64,000 bases of DNA. Origin: an uncultured Desulfuromonadaceae bacterium (GTDB lineage: Bacteria > SDB-A). A program made the position numbers and the translations under genes. Location of the stretch: assembly GCA_964397545.1 (NCBI GenBank), contig CAYNIW010000003.1:134-64133 (forward strand), written 5' to 3'. The stretch's first letter is position 1; the number at the start of each line of letters is the position of its first letter. The notes under the pieces are model-generated. The model saw only the letters and a list, made by a program, of their open reading frames with translations, was not told where the DNA came from and made no database searches. This document shows, piece by piece, positions 16,435 through 24,052 of this stretch.

Positions 16435-19302
16435 TCATTGTATTTTTTCTATTTTCAATATTTTATCTCCTTCTTCTGTCTGAATAACAATAAAGTAAAC
16501 TCCCTGACCTTGAATATTCCTGCTGATTTCATAGGAATACTTTCCGGGGCCTAAATAACCTCTATATATCTCAGAAACGATTCTTCCAGATATGTCAAAC
16601 ACCCTCAGTGAGACATCTCCGGGTCTGGTCAGTGTGAAATAGACCCTGTTATTTTCTGTGAAAAAAGTTTTTTCAGCTCTGAAACTGAAGAAAACCGGTA
16701 AATCCTCTTCCAACTGAACTTCGACACCGGATGCGTTTTTCAATAAAACCTTTATTGCCCAGCAAATATTGTTGCCGTATCCTGACATATAACTCCAGTT
16801 AGGACCATTTTTGAAATTATCAGTCTGAAGAGGTATACACTGCGCTCCGAAAGTAGCGTGAAACGGATTTTCCCCAGTTCCATGAGTAAAACCAACTTCA
16901 AACCACATATCCTGAGATGAGTTCACTGAAACCGCTTCAGCATCGCTGTAAACCACATAGTTCCAGCCTGTATCACCGGATACATTAAAAGATTTAGAGA
17001 ATATTAACGGGCCAGGAATCGCCGGACTAGCTCCAGAATAAATATTCACGACAGCGTCATTTATAGTGTTTGTTCCTCCGTTGAGGTAAAAGTAAACCCT
17101 CTTGATTTTCCAACCCTGATAAATATTCAGTAGAGGCGGAGTGTATCTATGAGCCATTCCAAAATACGTATTTGGCGCATTTGAACCAAAAGAAACAGTC
17201 GAATCGTTTTCATCTGAGAAATATGTCAAAACAGCTGAAGTTATGGCTGTATCTATATATATAGTATCCTGATAGTAAAGATGATCTTTGGCATATACTG
17301 TCAAAAGAAAAGGTTCCTGTGTGTTTGCACTGTATTCGACAGCGGCTTTGCCCATAGAACCTGTTTTGCCTCTGAACCAGAATAATGTGTCATAAGGTTT
17401 TGAAAGACAGCACATAGCACCGGAGACCGGCAGACCAGATGAAGTCACAGTTACATCAAGAATGCCAGATAAATTTTTCAGCGTATCTTCGTGACTTACA
17501 GTAAGAGCTGTCGGCTGTTTTGAATAGATCTGCGTCTCGGGATCTCCGAAAAGGTTGAATTCGTTTATACACCAGTGTTCGCAGTCCCCAAAACCCCATG
17601 TCCAATTCATGAGTTGATCTTTAGAGAGGGCGTGAGCTCTTCCAATATTCCTTATTTGGTTTAAAAAGACATTTTGCGCTACCCTTATACACATATATTC
17701 AGAAGGACCGAGATATGGCGGATAACCCCAGCCGTAACGCGCGTTGAACATGACAGCTATGGCTCCGCCCGCAGAAGCGTTAAAAATATACTCTCCAACG
17801 CATTCCCTTCCGTCAAACCATCCGGGTTCACATGCCATAGAACTTATGACAAAAAGGCTGTCCCCGTTTGTCAGGTTCTGCATGGTAGTATTGCTTATAA
17901 TATTCGGCCAGCTCTGATAATAATACCAGGAGATAGAGCTGGACGATCCGTGAGCGGCTATATATGACCAGTGAAATCCTCGACTCAGCGAGTCTGAGAA
18001 CCCCGGCGGATAGCTCGTAGTGTCAGTCTGATACATTTTTCTGTCAGTCCAATATGACGGAAGCATGTAATCTGCTATAGAATCACACGATGAGCTTCCA
18101 TAGTATGAATAGACCCAAGGCGGAGTTGAACTGAACCACAAACCCGCTCCTGCAAATAGCGACTTTTCGATGAATCCTGAAGGGGGATTTTTCTCATAGG
18201 CTAAAACTTTTGAAACCCAGTTCTGAACTTCAGAAACATTGTTTAAGGGTAATCTTCCCACATAGACATCTGAGTAAAAATCACAGCTGTCGACAATGTA
18301 TTCTCCGTAAATATTGTTGTTGTTGGCGTCCCAGTCCTTAGTATACGGGACTACGTCGGAAAAATACAGGTCTGAGGGCAAATTGTTTGAATACCCAGAT
18401 GTGCTGACCGGGACCATTCTCGCACCGAGATTGTCATAATCACCGGCTAAAACGAGATATACAAGCCCTCTGTTCTGATGACTATCCCGGACGAAATCTC
18501 TTATACTTTCCATGGCGTCATAAGCCGGGTAGTTTGATGTAATCCATGTTGTTGTGACGACTTTAGCGCCGACCCCCCTTGTGATTTTCCATCTTATCAG
18601 AGGTTCAAATGCCGCAGAAAGATTGGCCGGGCAAACGACGACATATTCGTATTCTGAGAAGGGAACCCTTTTTAAAAAGGGAGAAAATCTATCTATATCC
18701 GATCTATTTTCAATCATTAAAAGAATTTCTTCTCTAAAAATCTCCATCTGATTTTCCGTAAGATATACAGCTTCCTGAAGTCCTTCTTCGTAAATTACTT
18801 CGAGATCTGCACTCGTGATAATCTGCAAGTTTCCTGATATCGGATTATATCTAAAAGGGGTATAACTTACATCAGCTAAAATAAATCCTGATTTTGACCC
18901 CGTCCTGAAAAAAACCTCAGGATAATTGGGGTAATACATGTCGCTTTTATATATTTGCTCATCTCCGGACACGAACAAAGGATATTTAGATGTCGGAACG
19001 GGATTCTGAGCAGGCAATATATTGTATTTCCCAACGTCAGTCCATACTATATTTTTTAACTCTGCGTTAATTACCTCTGAAGTCGGCGGAATCAAAATTG
19101 TTTTTGATATACCCTGAAGAGCAGGATGCCCAGGAAAAGGAGACGGAGCTCCGTTGCTTAAAAATATTACGTCAAAATCACCTATTCTCTGGACGTTGAA
19201 ATCAGTTAAGGAATATCCGATGGGCACGATTAATGCCCCTGAGTAAATATACATCGTAAATACGATGCTTGCAGATAAAGCAAGAAAACATTTTTTCATC
19301 AT
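16435..19302 (-). CDS. Gingipain-like C25 cysteine peptidase with propeptide and T9SS/FlgD-type C-terminal domain
   Basis: Propeptide (PGHPALQGISKTILIPP), YLVLAGD, SDLYFSD, VYVGRLP, catalytic His in AAHG and Cys in MACEPG, NLFGDP; tail LRVFDISGRIV...GVYFIVI. Confidence 0.9.
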   Translation of the reverse strand: MMKKCFLALSASIVFTMYIYSGALIVPIGYSLTDFNVQRIGDFDVIFLSNGAPSPFPGHPALQGISKTILIPPTSEVINAELKNIVWTDVGKYNILPAQNPVPTSKYPLFVSGDEQIYKSDMYYPNYPEVFFRTGSKSGFILADVSYTPFRYNPISGNLQIITSADLEVIYEEGLQEAVYLTENQMEIFREEILLMIENRSDIDRFSPFLKRVPFSEYEYVVVCPANLSAAFEPLIRWKITRGVGAKVVTTTWITSNYPAYDAMESIRDFVRDSHQNRGLVYLVLAGDYDNLGARMVPVSTSGYSNNLPSDLYFSDVVPYTKDWDANNNNIYGEYIVDSCDFYSDVYVGRLPLNNVSEVQNWVSKVLAYEKNPPSGFIEKSLFAGAGLWFSSTPPWVYSYYGSSSCDSIADYMLPSYWTDRKMYQTDTTSYPPGFSDSLSRGFHWSYIAAHGSSSSISWYYYQSWPNIISNTTMQNLTNGDSLFVISSMACEPGWFDGRECVGEYIFNASAGGAIAVMFNARYGWGYPPYLGPSEYMCIRVAQNVFLNQIRNIGRAHALSKDQLMNWTWGFGDCEHWCINEFNLFGDPETQIYSKQPTALTVSHEDTLKNLSGILDVTVTSSGLPVSGAMCCLSKPYDTLFWFRGKTGSMGKAAVEYSANTQEPFLLTVYAKDHLYYQDTIYIDTAITSAVLTYFSDENDSTVSFGSNAPNTYFGMAHRYTPPLLNIYQGWKIKRVYFYLNGGTNTINDAVVNIYSGASPAIPGPLIFSKSFNVSGDTGWNYVVYSDAEAVSVNSSQDMWFEVGFTHGTGENPFHATFGAQCIPLQTDNFKNGPNWSYMSGYGNNICWAIKVLLKNASGVEVQLEEDLPVFFSFRAEKTFFTENNRVYFTLTRPGDVSLRVFDISGRIVSEIYRGYLGPGKYSYEISRNIQGQGVYFIVIQTEEGDKILKIEKIQ

Positions 19303-19358: not shown

Positions 19359-20699
19359 TTAGCCTTCGTTGTCAAAATCATCATAATATGATTCTAAAAC
19401 AGGAAAGATCTTTGGGACGAGGAGATTGTTTTCATCTATGTAGTAAAAATTTGTCCATCCCTTTTTTATCTGATCAAAATTTCCTGAAAAATAATCTCTC
19501 ACTTCAAACTTTGATGAACTATCACCTATTTCTATCAGTTTTAGGCTCGATAAATAGTGCGCATAAAAAACCGGTAAACCCCTCAATTCACGATTTTCAT
19601 AAAAATCCACTCCTTGGACTGTCCTGACATAGTATGAATTTGGATGGTAATCGCCTAATATAATGTAAACAAAAGATATACACCAAGGATTTTTAAATTC
19701 TGTTATAGAGCCTTCCATGAAATCCATATATTCCATCATTATCTCTGTGCCTACATCAGGTATATCAGGATAAAAAGCATGATGTCTGAAATTGGCAGGG
19801 AGCGGCTCTAAATCACTGAAATTCCATATAATAGCGCCAGCATAACTTCTGTTGTAAAATTTTGACAAATTATCAGACTTATATCTTTCAGATATTTCCT
19901 TTAATGGATCAGAGGCTGTATATCCGTCCAAATATACTTCTGGCAGAGGCATAAGTGAGCCTATGAAAAATTTCAGCGCTCTCTTTACCTCTTCGTCTTC
20001 AAAGAGAACTGATATCCTGCCTTTTCGGATGTTGTTAGCCCATGAAGAACCCGTAAAAAGAGGATAACTCAATCTGAACATTTTGTTTTCGTAGTCGGAA
20101 GTCAAAAGGTATTCCTGCGAAAATTCAATAAATTTTGTTGATTTTTCGTCAAATTTGACCTTCCAAAAGGCTAAAAGAGCTTTGGCCTCGTAAGCAAAAT
20201 CCCGACTTTTTTCATCGATTTTATAAAACAGGGGTTCGCCTTCTTGTGGCTCATTTATATTTAATACTTCATAACACGCAGAAAACTCTTCCCAGCTCAT
20301 ATCCCTCATCATGGAGCTGTCCCAGACATCGTAGTAGAAAATATCCACAGGGCAGATCTTTCCATCGACCAGAACTTCGATTTTTAGACTATCTGCCCAA
20401 TAATTCGAAAGACCCACCGGATAAAAAGGAGTCCTCACTTCAAGAGGGAAATACATCAGGACTTCAGATTCATCTCCAAAATTATCAAAGACAAACACGC
20501 TGTTGACTTGAGCTTTGATAATCCCCGAGTCCTCGTATATACTTATAAATACCTCTTCGTAAGACATCTGTATTTCTATTGAGTCATTATCAATAAGGAC
20601 TGGCGAAGGTCCTGATGTGACAGAACGAAGATATCCGGCATCAGAGAAAAGTTGAGAACACAACAAAAAAAATAGAAAGACCAAAAATCCTTTTAGCAT
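19359..20699 (-). CDS. Exported hypothetical protein (N-terminus resembles DUF4424)
   Basis: Signal peptide followed by DAG...IEIQMSYEEVFI and YPLFTGSSWANNI; ATG at 20699 follows GGGGGG. Confidence 0.6.
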   Translation of the reverse strand: MLKGFLVFLFFLLCSQLFSDAGYLRSVTSGPSPVLIDNDSIEIQMSYEEVFISIYEDSGIIKAQVNSVFVFDNFGDESEVLMYFPLEVRTPFYPVGLSNYWADSLKIEVLVDGKICPVDIFYYDVWDSSMMRDMSWEEFSACYEVLNINEPQEGEPLFYKIDEKSRDFAYEAKALLAFWKVKFDEKSTKFIEFSQEYLLTSDYENKMFRLSYPLFTGSSWANNIRKGRISVLFEDEEVKRALKFFIGSLMPLPEVYLDGYTASDPLKEISERYKSDNLSKFYNRSYAGAIIWNFSDLEPLPANFRHHAFYPDIPDVGTEIMMEYMDFMEGSITEFKNPWCISFVYIILGDYHPNSYYVRTVQGVDFYENRELRGLPVFYAHYLSSLKLIEIGDSSSKFEVRDYFSGNFDQIKKGWTNFYYIDENNLLVPKIFPVLESYYDDFDNEG

Positions 20700-20745
20700 A
20701 AACACCCCCCTTGACTCACTGCCGGATTTTCTTTCTCGCCCCCTC

Positions 20746-21567
20746 TCAGAGGTTTATTTTGAAAAGTCCGGTCATAATCAGAATGGCCAATATGCCTCCC
20801 ATTATTATCCTGTAAAGAGCAAAATATTTCAACGACGTTCTCCGCAGTATTGCCATGAATAATTTGATAGAGACAAGAGCCACTATAAATGAAGTTATAA
20901 ATCCTATTGATAACAGTATCGCGTTGTCCGTTTTTAATAGTAGATCTTTCGATTTGTAAGCGTCGTAAAATGCGGCTCCCGTCATCACAGGCACTGCCGC
21001 CAGAAAAGAATATTCCGCGGCGGTTTTTCTGTCGAACTTCATGACGAGCCCGCCTGAAATCGTGCTCGCCGAACGGGACATTCCCGGGAAAAGCGCGATG
21101 ACTTGGAAAATACCTATTAATATGGCGTCTTTATATGTAAGTGAATCTATACCTGTCCTCTTTTTAGGGCAATATTTTTCTGCTATGGCCATCAGAATGC
21201 CCCCTATTACGAGAGCGAATGAAACTGAAAGCGGATTAAAAAGATAACTTTTCACCAAAGAATGCAGAAGGGCTCCGGCAATAACAGCAGGCAGAGAAGT
21301 GAGAAAAAGCGAGAAAATAGTTCTCCAGCCGTAAAAACCCGGCCTCCTGAAAGAGAATATTCCCTTAAACCTCTCTTTGTATAATACTACAACGGAGAGA
21401 ATCGCCCCGAACTGAATAATAACTTCAAATGCCTGAGCGAATTGCCTGTCCCTGAAAGGAAACAAAGACTCGACAATTATCAAATGCCCTGTTGAGGACA
21501 CCGGAATGAATTCCGTTAGTCCTTCGACGATACCGAGTATAAAAGATTTGGCAATTTCATAAATCAT
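20746..21567 (-). CDS. uppP: Undecaprenyl-diphosphate phosphatase
   Basis: GIVEGLTEFIPVSSTGHL, FEVIIQFGAIL, PGMSRSASTI, AAEYSFLAAVP; ATG at 21567 follows GGGGAG supplied by the IS end. Confidence 0.95.
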   Translation of the reverse strand: MIYEIAKSFILGIVEGLTEFIPVSSTGHLIIVESLFPFRDRQFAQAFEVIIQFGAILSVVVLYKERFKGIFSFRRPGFYGWRTIFSLFLTSLPAVIAGALLHSLVKSYLFNPLSVSFALVIGGILMAIAEKYCPKKRTGIDSLTYKDAILIGIFQVIALFPGMSRSASTISGGLVMKFDRKTAAEYSFLAAVPVMTGAAFYDAYKSKDLLLKTDNAILLSIGFITSFIVALVSIKLFMAILRRTSLKYFALYRIIMGGILAILIMTGLFKINL

Positions 21568-21801
21568 ATACTGCTCCCCGTCAATCAAGCGGGAATTTTG
21601 TTAGAAATAGCATAGAATATTTTTCATAACCTTCAGGGGTTTTCCATTTCAGTGATGATTGCAGAAAATCCGTATTGTAATTTTTAATCCATTTATCCAA
21701 AGCATTTTTTAACCGGTAGAAATTGTCCCAATAATGCGTCCAGGCAAATTCTTCTTTCAACATCCTGATAATCCGTAATTTCTTTTAAGGAGAGCAGTAT
21801 A
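21567..21801 (-). mobile_element. 235-bp internally deleted IS (IS3/IS481-like, MITE-type) with both terminal inverted repeats and a 4-bp target duplication
   Basis: Ends TATACTGCTCCCCGTCAATCAA (21567 onward) and, on the reverse strand, TATACTGCTCTCCTTAAAAGAA (21801 downward): first 10 nt identical, 17/22 overall. Flanked by ATCA at 21563-21566 and 21802-21805. Contains a transposase C-terminal fragment. Confidence 0.8.
21581..21775 (-). pseudogene. C-terminal fragment of an rve-type (IS3/IS481-like) transposase
   Basis: RIIRMLKEEF...LDKWIKNYNTDFLQSSLKWKTP resembles the consensus ERFxRTLKEE...WIxxYNxxRPHSSLGYxTP; the N-terminal ~85% is absent. Confidence 0.75.
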
Positions 21802-22035
21802 ATCATACTTACTCTTTATCAGATAAATAAAAAAAGATAAACCTGATTTAACCGTGTTGGAGAAACCAAATATTAGAAATACTTTTTTGTTAAATTAGAT
21901 CTAATAGGTTTAAGTTGATGAAAATCCAAAACCGATATAACATAATCGAAGATAAAAATATGGAGGACAATTGAACGGATCTGCAATGTTAAAACTGAAT
22001 CCTGGCCGGCTTAAAGCTTTAATTTCAGAAAAAAG

Positions 22036-22839
22036 ATGCTCGGCATCCTGATCTTATTGACATCAATGGCTCCGTTTACACAGGAATCTCTCGAAAATAT
22101 CATTTTTTCGGTCAACTCCAGAGAAATGAATACCGGTGATCGAATCGCCTATTACTCCGCTCTTTTCATCGGAACCCAATACGAACTCGGGCCTCTCGGA
22201 GAAGGCGGCGGCAATCCCCCCGACACCGACCCTCTTTACAATTTTGAGAAAGTTGACTGCGTCACATTTTGCGAACAGGTTATAGCTCTGTCCCTTACAA
22301 AAAAAGGTTTCGAAGATTTTCTGGACATTCTGACGCACATCAGATACAGGCAAGGTTTAATTTCCTTCGAAACAAGAAACCATTATTCATATCTCGACTG
22401 GATTCCCAACAACTCCTGGTTTTGCGATAACGTCACAGATAAATTCCATTCCCCGTGCACTTGTGTCAAAATTATTGACAGAGACAAATTCCTTTCAGAA
22501 CACGGGTTTTATACTGAAATAACCACTGTGCCTTCCATCGTGGAAATATTATACATCCCGCAGGATTACATGGTTGAAATAACTGATTTCCTTGAAAACG
22601 GCGATCTGATAATGATAGCTACTTCAAAACCCGGAATCGATATAGCACACTGGGGTTTTTACATCAAAGAGAATAATGCCTTCAGACACGCCTCCATGAG
22701 CCGCAGAGAAGTTACAGACCTCGACTGGGATTCTTTTGTCTCATATATTTTTTCCAAGAACGATTTTATAGGAATCTCTGTAGTTAGGATTTCGAAAAAT
22801 CCTTTTTTTTACTGGCGCGAAAATGGCTCTGCGTTTTGA
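22036..22839 (+). CDS. DUF1460 / N-acetylmuramoyl-L-alanine amidase-like (NlpC/P60 fold) protein
   Basis: FIGTQY, KVDCVTFCE (catalytic Cys), IRYRQG...RNHY, GIDIAHWG, FRHAS. Confidence 0.85.
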   Translation: MLGILILLTSMAPFTQESLENIIFSVNSREMNTGDRIAYYSALFIGTQYELGPLGEGGGNPPDTDPLYNFEKVDCVTFCEQVIALSLTKKGFEDFLDILTHIRYRQGLISFETRNHYSYLDWIPNNSWFCDNVTDKFHSPCTCVKIIDRDKFLSEHGFYTEITTVPSIVEILYIPQDYMVEITDFLENGDLIMIATSKPGIDIAHWGFYIKENNAFRHASMSRREVTDLDWDSFVSYIFSKNDFIGISVVRISKNPFFYWRENGSAF

Positions 22840-24052
22840 TATCTACATCCTGAGACAACACGCTGTCCCGTTTTTACTTTCTTTCTTCGTCTACACTTTT
22901 GTCCTTATAATGAACAGGCTTTTCGAACTCGTCGATCTGATTTTCGGCAAAGGTCTTGAACCTTCCACGGTCACCCTTATTTTCCTATACAGTTTGCCTT
23001 TTATAATCGCCATAACAGCACCCATGGCTTTCCTGACATCGGTCCTCGCCGTTTTCGGCAGAATGTCTGAGGATTTCGAAATAATCTCACTGAAAGCTCT
23101 CGGAATAAGCCCTCTTAGGATTCTTCCGCCTCTTGTTTTTTTTGCGGGTATATTTATCATTTTCATGGTCTATTTCAACAATCACATTCTCCCCGACACA
23201 AACCACAAAGTGAAAATGCTTCTTCTCGAAGTCGGTGAAAAAAGACCGGTCGCGGAACTTGCTCCGAGAAGTTTTATATCAAATTTTCCCGGATATATTC
23301 TCTACTCGAGAGCGATAGACAAATCATCAAACCCTGCTAAACTCGAAGACGTAATACTCTACAGAAAGAGCGACGACAATCTGACAGGATCTGAATTCAT
23401 AATTTCAAGAGAAGCCGGCATTTCCATAGACAGAGAGCAAAACCTGATAACTTTCACAATGTCAGGAGGTCAGCGTCACATTTTGGGACAGTTCGGAGCG
23501 TATTGGAACATGGATTTCGACACCCAGTATATTAATGTTTTTCTGCCCCCTGAAGCCCGCCCGGACACTTCTTACCGCGGGGACAGGGAATTATCCGCTC
23601 AGCAGATGTCCCAAAGGGTCCGGCTCTGGGAGAAAGATCTCGACTCGTTAAAAAGACTTAAAGACTCTGTCTCGTTATTTTCGGATTATCCCGATGAAGG
23701 CACGTTGATTTCTGCTGATATTCAGATGCAGGGAATAAAAAACGACATAGACAGATATTCAGTCGAAATTCACAAAAAATATTCTCTCCCGTTCGCGGCT
23801 CTGACATTCATTTTTCTCGGAGTTCCTCTTGGCATTTTAACAAGAAAAGGCGGCATGGGAGCGGCTTTCGGAATTGCAATTCTGATAACAACGGTTTACT
23901 ATATATTCATAGTCAGCGGAGAAACCCTTTCAGATAGAGGATTCCTCAATCCTGCCGTGGCTATGTGGTCGGCGAATTTTTTCTTTCTCGCGCTTGGACT
24001 TTTTCTCTACCACGGATTTTTCTTTGACTCTATTCACTTTTGGAAAAGATGA
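22823..24052 (+). CDS. lptF: LptF/LptG family LPS export permease (LptF)
   Basis: GRMSEDFEIISLKALGISP, EIHKKYSLPFA, LGVPLG, AMWSAN; 3+3 TM helices around a periplasmic domain. Confidence 0.85.
   Translation: MALRFDIYILRQHAVPFLLSFFVYTFVLIMNRLFELVDLIFGKGLEPSTVTLIFLYSLPFIIAITAPMAFLTSVLAVFGRMSEDFEIISLKALGISPLRILPPLVFFAGIFIIFMVYFNNHILPDTNHKVKMLLLEVGEKRPVAELAPRSFISNFPGYILYSRAIDKSSNPAKLEDVILYRKSDDNLTGSEFIISREAGISIDREQNLITFTMSGGQRHILGQFGAYWNMDFDTQYINVFLPPEARPDTSYRGDRELSAQQMSQRVRLWEKDLDSLKRLKDSVSLFSDYPDEGTLISADIQMQGIKNDIDRYSVEIHKKYSLPFAALTFIFLGVPLGILTRKGGMGAAFGIAILITTVYYIFIVSGETLSDRGFLNPAVAMWSANFFFLALGLFLYHGFFFDSIHFWKR

What the first reader, a model, noticed from the sequence alone, without database searches (positions are those of the whole stretch)
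21563..21806. Miniature IS inserted inside the uppP start codon, rebuilding the ATG and supplying a new ribosome-binding site
Seen: a 235-bp element (21567-21801) with imperfect terminal inverted repeats (TATACTGCTC...), a 4-bp duplication (ATCA/TGAT) and only the last ~65 codons of an IS3/IS481-like transposase. On the coding strand the empty site reads AAAGAGTAAGT-ATG-ATT-TAT-GAA (M-I-Y-E), so the insertion landed within the start codon. The element's terminal A plus the duplicated TGAT recreate the same ATG ATT TAT GAA, now preceded by GGGGAG, with TTGATT/TTGACG hexamers just upstream. The displaced original ATG (21806) now opens a 37-codon junk ORF. Established: IS3-family ends can carry outward promoter hexamers, and UppP level affects undecaprenyl-phosphate recycling and bacitracin tolerance. 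Inference: a non-autonomous element kept because it rewires uppP translation or transcription without changing the protein.
Basis: partly seen in the sequence, partly recalled or inferred. Interest (0 to 1): 0.72.

Follow-up and report, generated by a model that had tools for sequence, protein, structure and literature searches.

The report
Dead IS3 relic at uppP start
A 235-bp dead remnant of an IS3-family jumping gene sits exactly at the start codon of the cell-wall recycling gene uppP in an uncultured WOR-3 bacterium, leaving the protein unchanged; this is a neat but ordinary case of a tolerated insertion, and nothing shows it is kept for a regulatory purpose.

Summary
At 21567-21801 lies a 235-bp element with 18-nt terminal inverted repeats (15/18). 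It is flanked by a 4-bp duplication and holds only the last 67 codons of an IS3-type OrfB.

Three syntenic WOR-3 relatives lack it. The closest reads ...AAAGC ATG ATA TAT GAA, which is the predicted empty site.

Full-length ISs of about 1,145 bp with the same ends exist in metagenomes (IRL TATACTGCTCCCC, IRR GGGGAGCAKTACA). They have 4-bp duplications, OrfA, an A-run slippery site and OrfB. Their OrfB is only 33-46% identical to the remnant, so no direct parent was found.

The copy is solitary and retains no catalytic residue. It is present in all 24 contigs read, and its right junction is also held by a strain about 5% diverged.

The "new" ATG follows from the duplication plus the terminal A that every family copy seen has. 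The GGGGAG is a conserved part of the inverted repeat.

The IRR -35-like hexamers cannot give an mRNA that contains the ATG. In a read-through transcript the two repeats are predicted to pair over the GGGGAG.

"Kept because it rewires uppP" is therefore unsupported. A tolerated, immobile relic read through from the native promoter is the better explanation. Interest is low to moderate.

The parts
20746..21567 (-). uppP (undecaprenyl-diphosphate phosphatase, BacA family), 273 aa, intact. The start ATG is at 21567-21565.
   Evidence: Pfam BacA 7.8e-79; NCBIfam NF001390 295 bits (cut-off 260), residue 2 aligned to profile position 3. The identical 273-aa product is on record in 29 assembly blocks. 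dN/dS against L005 is 0.10.
21563..21566 (.). Downstream copy of the 4-bp target-site duplication (ATCA on +, TGAT on -). It supplies bases 2-5 of ATGAT.
   Evidence: Read directly from the sequence. A 4-bp duplication is also seen in family members L071, L078 and L067.
21567..21801 (-). 235-bp internal-deletion relic of an IS3-family insertion sequence. Its transposase orientation is the same as uppP.
   Evidence: Absent from the syntenic relatives L005, L007 and L009. Ends match those of ~1,145-bp full-length ISs.
21567..21584 (-). Right inverted repeat (IRR) abutting uppP. Its terminal A (21567) is the A of the ATG. It contains the SD-like GGGGAG (21579-21574), and the hexamer TTGACG (21584-21579) lies within it.
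   Evidence: 18-nt arm. The family IRR is ...GCTTGATTAAYGGGGAGCAKTACA.
21581..21784 (-). Remnant of orfB: 67 open codons plus a TGA stop (21583-21581) 13 nt before the uppP ATG. It begins just after the position of the catalytic E, so no DDE residue is left.
   Evidence: It aligns to NADTE|RVIRTLKED... of full-length OrfB.
21784..21801 (-). Left inverted repeat (IRL), TATACTGCTCTCC... on the minus strand.
   Evidence: The family IRL is TATACTGCTCCCC(G/A)(T/C)TAA.
21802..21805 (.). Upstream copy of the target-site duplication.
21693..21806 (-). The displaced original uppP ATG (21806-21804), which now opens a 37-codon ORF running across the IRL into the relic.
21817..21842 (-). Conserved block upstream of the ancestral ATG: GTTTAT (21842-21837) ... 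TCTGATA (21823-21817). It is the probable native uppP promoter, now 239 bp further from the coding sequence.
   Evidence: TCTG(A/G)TA is invariant in 4 genomes at 11-12 nt from the ATG while the rest of the spacer diverges. The promoter reading is inference.
22036..22839 (+). Divergently transcribed AmiA-like amidase gene, first gene of an amiA-like/lptF/lptG unit. It marks the far side of the intergenic region, which is 468 bp here and 221-264 bp in relatives.

Best explanation
Identity (shown). This is a solitary, immobile internal-deletion relic of an IS3-family insertion sequence. The parent IS would have been about 1.1-1.2 kb, with IRL TATACTGCTCCCC and IRR GGGGAGCAKTA(C/T)A, making 4-bp duplications.

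History. The IS inserted in the lineage of this WOR-3 bacterium after its split from the nearest sequenced relative. It cut the target TGAT that spans bases 2-5 of the uppP reading frame. About 900 bp between the IRL and the last 67 codons of orfB are missing. Whether that loss happened before or after the insertion is unknown.

Why uppP survived. The element ends in A, as every family copy seen does, and the duplicated target begins with TG. The junction therefore reads A|TGAT and UppP is unchanged (M-I-Y-E...).

How it most likely works now (inferred).
- uppP is still transcribed from its own promoter-like block just upstream of the old ATG (21817-21842).
- That transcript reads through the co-oriented relic, which has no terminator on that strand.
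- UppP is translated from the regenerated ATG at 21567. The GGGGAG in the inverted repeat probably helps, since it sits at an ideal 6-nt spacing in an organism that does use Shine-Dalgarno sequences.

Why it persists. It cannot excise and it does little harm. No selected regulatory role is needed to explain its retention.
For: Structure and empty site
- TIRs, duplication and remnant are confirmed.
- Three syntenic relatives (89, 71 and 65% UppP identity) have a 221-264-bp spacer instead of 468 bp, with no element. L005 reads CTGGTAAAAAGAAAGC-ATG-ATA-TAT-GAA.

Family
- A scan with the IRR pattern found 65 metagenome loci.
- Fourteen of them are complete ~1,145-bp ISs with IRL TATACTGCTCCCC.
- Three of those show clean 4-bp duplications (P about 2e-5 by chance).
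- They carry OrfA with HTH_Tnp_1, a TTAAAAAAAAC slippery run, and OrfB with HTH_21, rve and rve_3 that passes the NCBIfam IS3 cut-off.

Immobile and solitary
- The remnant starts after the catalytic E.
- There is no second copy in the window.
- Contigs of 90-114 kb assemble straight through it.
- Nothing above 60% identity was found among 1.84 billion representative proteins.

Fixed in the lineage
- The junctions are identical in the four contigs whose DNA was fetched, and gene spacing is the same in the 24 read.
- In sediment run X7, a ~5%-diverged contig holds the right junction and a separate near-identical 146-nt contig holds the left one; no empty-site joint was seen in any run.

uppP still in use
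- The ORF is intact and dN/dS against L005 is 0.10.
- Its coding sequence appears in contigs of three sludge metatranscriptomes.

SD use and read-through
- 16 of 50 long ORFs have a GGAG, GAGG or AGGA core at -18..-5, against 12.8% for internal ATGs.
- No terminator-like site lies on the minus strand inside the relic.
Against: - No transcript start has been mapped. The RNA contigs stop at 21475, so they cover neither the 5' end of the gene nor the relic.
- In a read-through RNA the two inverted repeats are predicted to form a 13-bp stem that buries GGGGAG and the bases just before AUG. A local hairpin of -8.4 kcal/mol does the same. The 'new RBS' may therefore be weak or conditional.
- The promoter reading of the conserved block rests on four sequences. 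The sigma-70 scan found nothing above chance there.
- In run X7 the element and the uppP 5' end are much less diverged than the flanks (pooled P = 0.0004; within one contig P = 0.09). This could hint at constraint or recent gene flow, which a purely neutral view does not predict.
- The 67-codon remnant is still open (about 0.4% expected by chance at this composition). That suggests either youth or some constraint.
Confidence: 0.65

Rival explanations
1. Adaptive rewiring. The relic is retained by selection because it gives uppP a stronger ribosome-binding site and/or an IS-borne promoter. That would raise UppP levels and, for example, tolerance to bacitracin-like compounds.
For: - GGGGAG sits 6 nt before the ATG, where the ancestral site had only AAAGAG/AAAAAG or nothing SD-like.
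- The organism uses SD sequences.
- IS3-family ends often carry outward or proto-promoters (PMC12095673).
- The element is present in all 24 contigs read.
- The element and the uppP 5' end are unusually conserved in run X7.
Against: - GGGGAG and the -35-like hexamers are conserved parts of the family's inverted repeat and of the orfB stop region. They were not shaped at this locus.
- The hexamers are too close to the tip. The only fitting -10 (TATGAA, 17 nt after TTGACG) lies in codons 3-4, so that RNA would lack the ATG.
- The promoter scan over the region gives no more hits than shuffled sequence.
- The SD is predicted to be sequestered.
- Fixation is expected anyway for a relic that cannot excise.
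- No expression data cover the region.
Confidence: 0.15
2. Leaderless-to-leadered conversion with built-in control. The ancestral uppP mRNA began at or next to its ATG, with an extended -10 (TGnTAnnnW) 5-6 nt upstream and no SD.

The insertion turned it into a 239-nt-leader mRNA. Its 5' AUG now starts a 37-codon ORF across the IRL. Translation of that ORF, or of the 60-codon remnant that stops 13 nt before the uppP AUG, would open the IRL/IRR stem and free the SD. uppP translation would then be coupled to upstream translation.
For: - TCTG(A/G)TA is invariant at a fixed 11-12 nt from the ATG in four genomes, with no SD. More distant uppP genes do have an SD (AAGGA in L081, GAGAGG in L082).
- The 13-bp TIR stem over the SD appears in both the MFE and the centroid fold.
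- The 37-codon ORF covers the IRL.
- The remnant ORF is still open and ends 13 nt before the ATG.
Against: - No other gene in the window has an extended -10 5-8 nt before a long-ORF ATG.
- The -35 region is poor and the fold z-score is unremarkable, at -0.34.
- There are no TSS or ribosome data.
- Every step beyond the sequence motifs is inference.
Confidence: 0.12
3. uppP was crippled by the insertion and is decaying, with another undecaprenyl-diphosphate phosphatase (PAP2 type) doing the work. On this view the regenerated ATG is irrelevant.
For: - Many bacteria carry redundant UPP phosphatases (general knowledge, not tested here).
- The SD is predicted to be occluded.
- RNA coverage of uppP is very low.
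Against: - The 273-codon ORF is intact and full length against the family profiles.
- dN/dS against L005 is 0.10.
- There are no differences in uppP among four strains, and only 1 in 129 nt in the X7 contig over its 5' end (21438-21566).
- The insertion predates about 5% strain divergence, yet there is no stop or frameshift.
- The coding sequence is present in three metatranscriptomes.
Confidence: 0.08

Closest known systems
IS3-family insertion sequences. The IS407/IS150-type groups make 4-bp duplications; that group assignment is from memory and was not tested.
   Same: - OrfB C-terminal homology.
- Terminal inverted repeats of the T(G/A)TACTGC...CCCC type, and a 4-bp duplication.
- Full-length relatives with identical ends have OrfA (HTH_Tnp_1), an A-run slippery site and OrfB (HTH_21, rve, rve_3).
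- A -35-like hexamer in the IRR and TATACT at the IRL tip, as in the IS911/IS2 circle-junction promoter (PMC12095673, PMC3219604).
   Different: - The window copy has lost about 900 bp, including orfA, the frameshift site and all catalytic residues.
- Both of its tips read TA rather than the canonical TG...CA. Relatives have a TA tip on the IRL and a CA tip on the IRR.
- No parent closer than 60% protein identity is known.
MITEs and other IS-derived miniature elements, such as MITEAba12 (PMC6382973). Neisseria Correia elements are a further example, named from memory.
   Same: - Small size, terminal inverted repeats, a target duplication and no working transposase.
- Placed next to a gene start, where the TIRs can act as promoter, RBS or RNA-stem elements.
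   Different: MITEs are defined as amplified families that are mobilised in trans. This element is single-copy in the window, and long contigs assemble through it. It still carries a recognisable transposase fragment, so it is a one-off deletion relic.
IS-mediated activation of neighbouring genes by outward or hybrid promoters, reviewed in PMC12095673. The IS5 fusion promoter at fucAO (PMC11894529) is a case.
   Same: An IS end with a -35-like hexamer lies directly upstream of a gene.
   Different: The geometry does not allow a hybrid promoter that would include the start codon. The insertion is at the start codon rather than upstream of it, and no activation has been shown.

Membership tests
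IS3 family (insertion sequence) | DDE (rve) transposase OrfB homology | tested here: met
   The remnant matches NCBIfam IS3 at profile positions 321-369 of 369 (3.4e-7), and rve_2/rve_3. The fragment alone is below the whole-protein cut-off. Its full-length homologues P0129, P0130 and P0135 score 170-186 bits against a cut-off of 160 for IS3. They fall below the cut-off for IS481.
IS3 family (insertion sequence) | Two overlapping ORFs (orfA with HTH, orfB) joined by a -1 frameshift at an A-rich slippery site | tested here: not met
   Absent from the window element because it was deleted. Present in full-length ISs with the same ends: OrfA of 89 aa with PF01527, a TTAAAAAAAAC overlap, and OrfB. 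The window copy therefore descends from such an IS but is not itself a complete member.
IS3 family (insertion sequence) | Terminal inverted repeats ending 5'-TG...CA-3' | tested here: inconclusive
   The window has TA at both tips (TATACTGC.../...GCAGTATA). In 14 full-length relatives the IRL tip is TA and the IRR tip is CA. Four of the 65 IRRs end in TATA.
IS3 family (insertion sequence) | Short target duplication of 3-5 bp | tested here: met
   ATCA/ATCA in the window. CCTT, ATTT and TCTT in L071, L078 and L067. The binomial P is about 2e-5.
MITE (miniature inverted-repeat transposable element) | Small size, TIRs, a target duplication and no functional transposase | tested here: met
   235 bp, 18-nt TIRs, a 4-bp duplication, and a remnant that lacks all catalytic residues.
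MITE (miniature inverted-repeat transposable element) | Multiple near-identical copies in the genome, mobilised in trans | tested here: not met
   There is no other copy in the 64-kb window. Contigs of 90-114 kb assemble through it. No near-identical copy was found in the genome or metagenome scans. The rest of this genome could not be searched.
UppP/BacA undecaprenyl-diphosphate phosphatase | Full-length match to the family profiles above the curated cut-off | tested here: met
   PF02673 at 265 bits (cut-off 33.4). NF001390 at 295 bits (cut-off 260). TIGR00753 at 249 bits (cut-off 217.5).
IS-borne outward or hybrid promoter driving the neighbouring gene | A -35 in the IS end, properly spaced from a -10, giving a transcript that contains the gene's start codon | tested here: not met
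   TTGACG-17-TATGAA and TTGATT-17/18-GATTTA/ATTTAT all place the -10 on or after the ATG. The consensus scan gave no hit there and no excess over shuffles. Actual transcription is not testable with these tools.

The most novel reading that the evidence does not exclude
The insertion converted an ancestrally leaderless (or near-leaderless), SD-less uppP into a gene with a long leader that depends on an SD. Its ribosome-binding site lies inside an IS inverted repeat and is masked by pairing with the other repeat. It would be unmasked only when ribosomes translate the upstream junk ORF that starts at the old AUG. That would be an accidental translational switch built from a transposon relic.
Probability: 0.1. 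Interest if true: 0.55.

Novelty: new member of a known kind. Interest (0 to 1): 0.3.

Why it matters
This is a clean natural example of how a gene can survive a transposon hit on its own start codon. The target duplication plus the element's invariant terminal A restores the ATG, and the inverted repeat happens to carry an SD-like GGGGAG.

It also brings to light an apparently undescribed IS3-type group of about 1,145 bp (ends TATACTGCTCCCC / GGGGAGCAKTACA) in sediment, sludge and digester metagenomes. Among GTDB representative genomes, its nearest relatives to this remnant occur only as deletion relics.

It does not change what is known about IS biology or UppP. Its value lies in annotation: uppP should not be called disrupted, and the 60-aa ORF should not be called a gene. 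It could also serve as a test case for regulation created by a transposon relic, if transcript ends are ever mapped.

Tried and rejected
1. Parent IS by protein search. The word-index search found only the remnant itself. An exhaustive HMMER search against 1.84 billion representatives gave at best a 60%-identical fragment and 46-48%-identical full-length OrfBs. No direct parent was found.
A three-sequence alignment then found only three loci, all relics. The window's own genome is not in that collection.
3. Empty-site or excision alleles. Contigs of nine DNA runs and four RNA runs showed no joint that skips the element. These are contigs, not reads, so rare variants would not be seen.
4. TSS from metatranscriptomes. 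Only low-depth contigs inside the uppP coding sequence were found, with nothing over the relic. This was uninformative.
5. The sigma-70 promoter and terminator scan showed no excess over shuffles. The only terminator-like hairpin in the relic is on the antisense strand.
6. Family habit of landing on start codons. Only 1 of 62 right flanks begins with TG, and none gives a long ORF from the junction. Rejected.
7. General use of leaderless genes with an extended -10 in this window. No other case was found, so the leaderless idea stays speculative.
8. IS481 membership. Full-length relatives fail the IS481 cut-off and have orfA plus a frameshift site. Rejected.
9. The TTG at 21588 as the uppP start. 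That product is never on record, it has no SD, and the profile alignment favours the ATG. Rejected.
10. Rfam and tRNA scans of the window found nothing.
Full report
**What is there**

On the minus strand the region reads:

...TTTATCTGATAAAGAGTAAGT-ATGAT | TATACTGCTCTCCTTAAAAG ... CCGCTTGATTGACGGGGAGCAGTATA | TGAT-TTATGAAATT....

- The two arms, 21567-21584 and 21784-21801, are 18 nt long and 15/18 complementary. They are the longest inverted pair in the region.
- The 13-mer TATACTGCTCYCC occurs exactly only at these two sites in the 64 kb.
- A 4-bp direct repeat flanks the 235 bp: ATCA on the + strand, at 21563-21566 and 21802-21805.
- Inside, a 67-codon open frame (21784-21584) matches only the extreme C-terminus of IS3/IS481-type transposases.
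- When aligned with full-length homologues, the frame begins immediately after the catalytic glutamate (NADTE|RVIRTLKED). No DDE residue remains.
- uppP (20746-21567) is a full-length BacA-family gene. Its residue 2 aligns to profile position 3. The 273-aa product from the ATG at 21567 is the one on record in 29 assembly blocks. The 280-aa TTG alternative is never on record.
- The old ATG (21806-21804) now opens a 37-codon ORF.

The one caveat is that the flanking repeat can also be read as ATGAT or TATGAT. The ATG may then simply have been duplicated rather than 'rebuilt'.

**Is it an insertion, and where did it land?**

The organism is a candidate-division WOR-3 bacterium, judging by the names its closest UppP homologues carry. 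Three relatives were examined, with 89, 71 and 65% UppP identity. All keep the same gene order: glycosyltransferase, lptG, lptF and amiA-like on one strand, then uppP, a hypothetical gene and a C25 peptidase gene on the other.

Their amiA-like/uppP spacer is 221-264 bp, against 468 bp here. The difference of about 239 bp equals the element plus one duplication copy.

In the alignment the element is a clean gap. The closest relative reads TTTATCTGGTAAAAAGAAAGC-ATG-ATA-TAT-GAA-ATC, which is the predicted empty site.

**Does an IS with matching ends exist?**

The remnant's protein has no close relative. A word-index search returned only itself. An exhaustive HMMER search of 1.84 billion representatives gave a 79-aa fragment at 60% identity, a 59-aa fragment at 57%, and full-length OrfB-like proteins at 46-48%. 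Those full-length proteins pass the NCBIfam IS3 cut-off but not the IS481 cut-off.

A scan of GTDB representative genomes found just three loci. They lie in an Ignavibacteriales MAG, an Omnitrophota MAG and a bin labelled Promethearchaeota. All three are themselves internal-deletion relics.

A scan of JGI metagenome contigs with a degenerate IRR pattern (TTGATTRAYGGGGRGCAKTAYA) found 65 loci.

- Fourteen hold complete ISs of about 1,145 bp. Their left end is TATACTGCTCCCC(G/A)(T/C)TAA, the window's repeat, and their right end is ...GCTTGATTAAYGGGGAGCAKTACA.
- Three of the fourteen show perfect 4-bp duplications (CCTT, ATTT, TCTT). The chance probability is about 2e-5.
- A representative has an 89-aa OrfA (PF01527), a TTAAAAAAAAC slippery overlap and an OrfB, the typical organisation of the IS3 family.
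- Their OrfB is only 33-46% identical to the remnant.

The window element therefore belongs to this end-type group, but its direct parent remains unknown.

**Copy number and age**

No second copy exists in the window. Public contigs of 90-114 kb assemble straight through the element. It is therefore not a repeated MITE family in these communities.

A 700-bp stretch (21401-22100) spanning the element and both junctions is 100% identical in the four contigs whose DNA was fetched.

Sediment run X7 carries a strain whose flanking genes differ by 3-9%. A contig of that strain (21687-21974) spans the right junction. A separate 146-nt contig (21438-21583), almost identical to the window, spans the left one. 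The insertion therefore predates about 5% genomic divergence. It is younger than the split from the 89%-identity relative, where dS is about 0.6. No run showed an empty-site joint, although contigs cannot reveal rare variants.

**What does it do to uppP?**

The protein is unchanged.

The terminal A is shared by every family copy seen. It was fixed in the search pattern, and it is also the canonical IS3 end. CTCCCC, the complement of GGGGAG, is present in 13 of 14 left repeats that were found independently of the pattern. So neither the regenerated ATG nor the SD-like motif was shaped at this locus. Both come with any insertion of this IS whose target begins with TG.

Among 62 other right flanks only one begins with TG, and none starts a long ORF there. 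The arrangement is a one-off coincidence that allowed this particular insertion to survive.

The organism does use SD sequences: 32% of long-ORF starts have one, against a 12.8% background, and clear AGGAGG examples exist. GGGGAG at 6-nt spacing is thus a credible ribosome-binding site, and better than the ancestral AAAGAG/AAAAAG.

RNA folding raises a difficulty. It predicts a local hairpin of -8.4 kcal/mol over CGGGGA. In any transcript that contains both repeats it also predicts a 13-bp IRL/IRR stem covering GGGGAG and the bases up to the AUG.

**Where does transcription come from?**

The only compatible -10 sequences fall on or after the ATG, for example TTGACG-17-TATGAA in codons 3-4. Such an RNA would lack the start codon.

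Together with TATACT at the very tip of the IRL, these hexamers fit the known IS3 circle-junction promoter architecture (PMC12095673). One metagenome contig, L026, actually shows an IRR-T-IRL head-to-tail junction that gives TTGATT-N17-TATACT.

The consensus scan found no excess of promoter-like sites, and no terminator on the uppP strand inside the relic.

Just upstream of the old ATG lies a block that is conserved in all four genomes while the rest of the spacer diverges: GTTTAT ... TCTG(A/G)TA, 11-12 nt from the ATG. I read this as the native uppP promoter, now 239 bp further from the gene. Because the relic is co-oriented with uppP, read-through is the simplest source of uppP mRNA.

The geometry (TGnTAnnnW, then 5-6 nt, then ATG) and the lack of an SD in these relatives suggest that the ancestral mRNA could have been leaderless. 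More distant uppP genes do have an SD. No other gene in the window shows this pattern, so I hold the idea at low probability.

**Is uppP still used?**

- The ORF is intact.
- dN/dS against L005 is 0.10.
- No differences occur in uppP among four strains.
- uppP coding-sequence contigs appear in three sludge metatranscriptomes, at very low depth. None reaches the 5' end, so the transcript start is unknown.

**Unexplained**

In X7 the element (1 difference in 132 nt) and the uppP 5' end (1 in 129) are far less diverged than the adjoining intergenic and amiA-like/lptF sequence (29 in 509). The pooled P is 0.0004, and within a single contig P is 0.09.

The remnant frame is also still open over 67 codons, with about 0.4% expected by chance at this composition.

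A mixture of strains, local gene flow, youth of the deletion derivative, or some constraint could each explain these observations. They are the only hints in favour of a selected role.

**Verdict**

The structural reading is right and now has independent support from the empty site, the IS family with matching ends, and the 4-bp duplication rule. The family is IS3, not IS481. The element is a solitary relic rather than a MITE family.

The functional reading ('kept because it rewires uppP') is not supported. The relic cannot leave. Its helpful features are generic properties of the IS end. Its promoter-like hexamers are placed wrongly for uppP, and its SD may be masked.

This is a new member of a known kind. 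Interest is low to moderate.

Noticed in passing
L026 (MWWB01017284.1), about 424-480 in the oriented copy: An IRR ...GGGGAGCAGTACA is followed after a single T by an IRL, TATACTGCACCCCGCTAAGAC. This is a head-to-tail junction, either a tandem copy or an assembled circle junction. It creates TTGATT-N17-TATACT, the geometry of an IS3-type junction promoter.
   Followed up: partly
L010/L015 2300-2745; L012/L013 900-1235; L014 2700-3210: All three GTDB-representative hits to the remnant's closest subgroup are themselves internal-deletion relics. They combine an orfA start and/or an orfB tail between IS ends. They lie in unrelated MAGs: a 'Promethearchaeota' bin, Ignavibacteriales and Omnitrophota. 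L010 sits 54 nt upstream of a glycosyltransferase gene in a polysaccharide cluster.
   Followed up: partly
window 21817-21842 (minus strand), with the aligned positions in L005, L007 and L009: TCTG(A/G)TA is invariant at 11-12 nt upstream of the ancestral uppP ATG, and GTT(T/C)AT lies about 15 nt further up. There is no SD in these four genomes. The pattern is compatible with an extended -10 promoter and a leaderless or near-leaderless ancestral mRNA.
   Followed up: partly
window 21438-24015, compared with run X7: Divergence between the window and the sediment strain is very uneven. It is about 1% over the uppP 5' end and the relic, and 3-9% in the adjoining spacer, amiA-like and lptF genes.
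   Followed up: partly
window 21915-21950 (+ strand): A block of sequence (TTGATGAAAATCCAAAACCGATATAACATAAT) is conserved with L005 and L007. It is probably the promoter of the divergent amiA-like/lptF/lptG unit. The consensus scan flags ATGAAA-17-CATAAT here.
   Followed up: no
window 16435-19302 (minus strand) and 19359-20705 (minus strand): Downstream of uppP, and conserved in synteny in all relatives, are a 448-aa protein with no Pfam hit and a 955-aa Peptidase_C25 (gingipain-like) protein.
   Followed up: no
whole window: The window's genome is in neither the GTDB-representative collection nor the JGI contigs scanned: patterns that match the window did not return it. It is abundant in Logan assemblies of sludge, digester and other metagenomes (29 blocks, contigs up to 139 kb). 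No tRNA gene and no Rfam hit was found in the 64 kb.
   Followed up: partly
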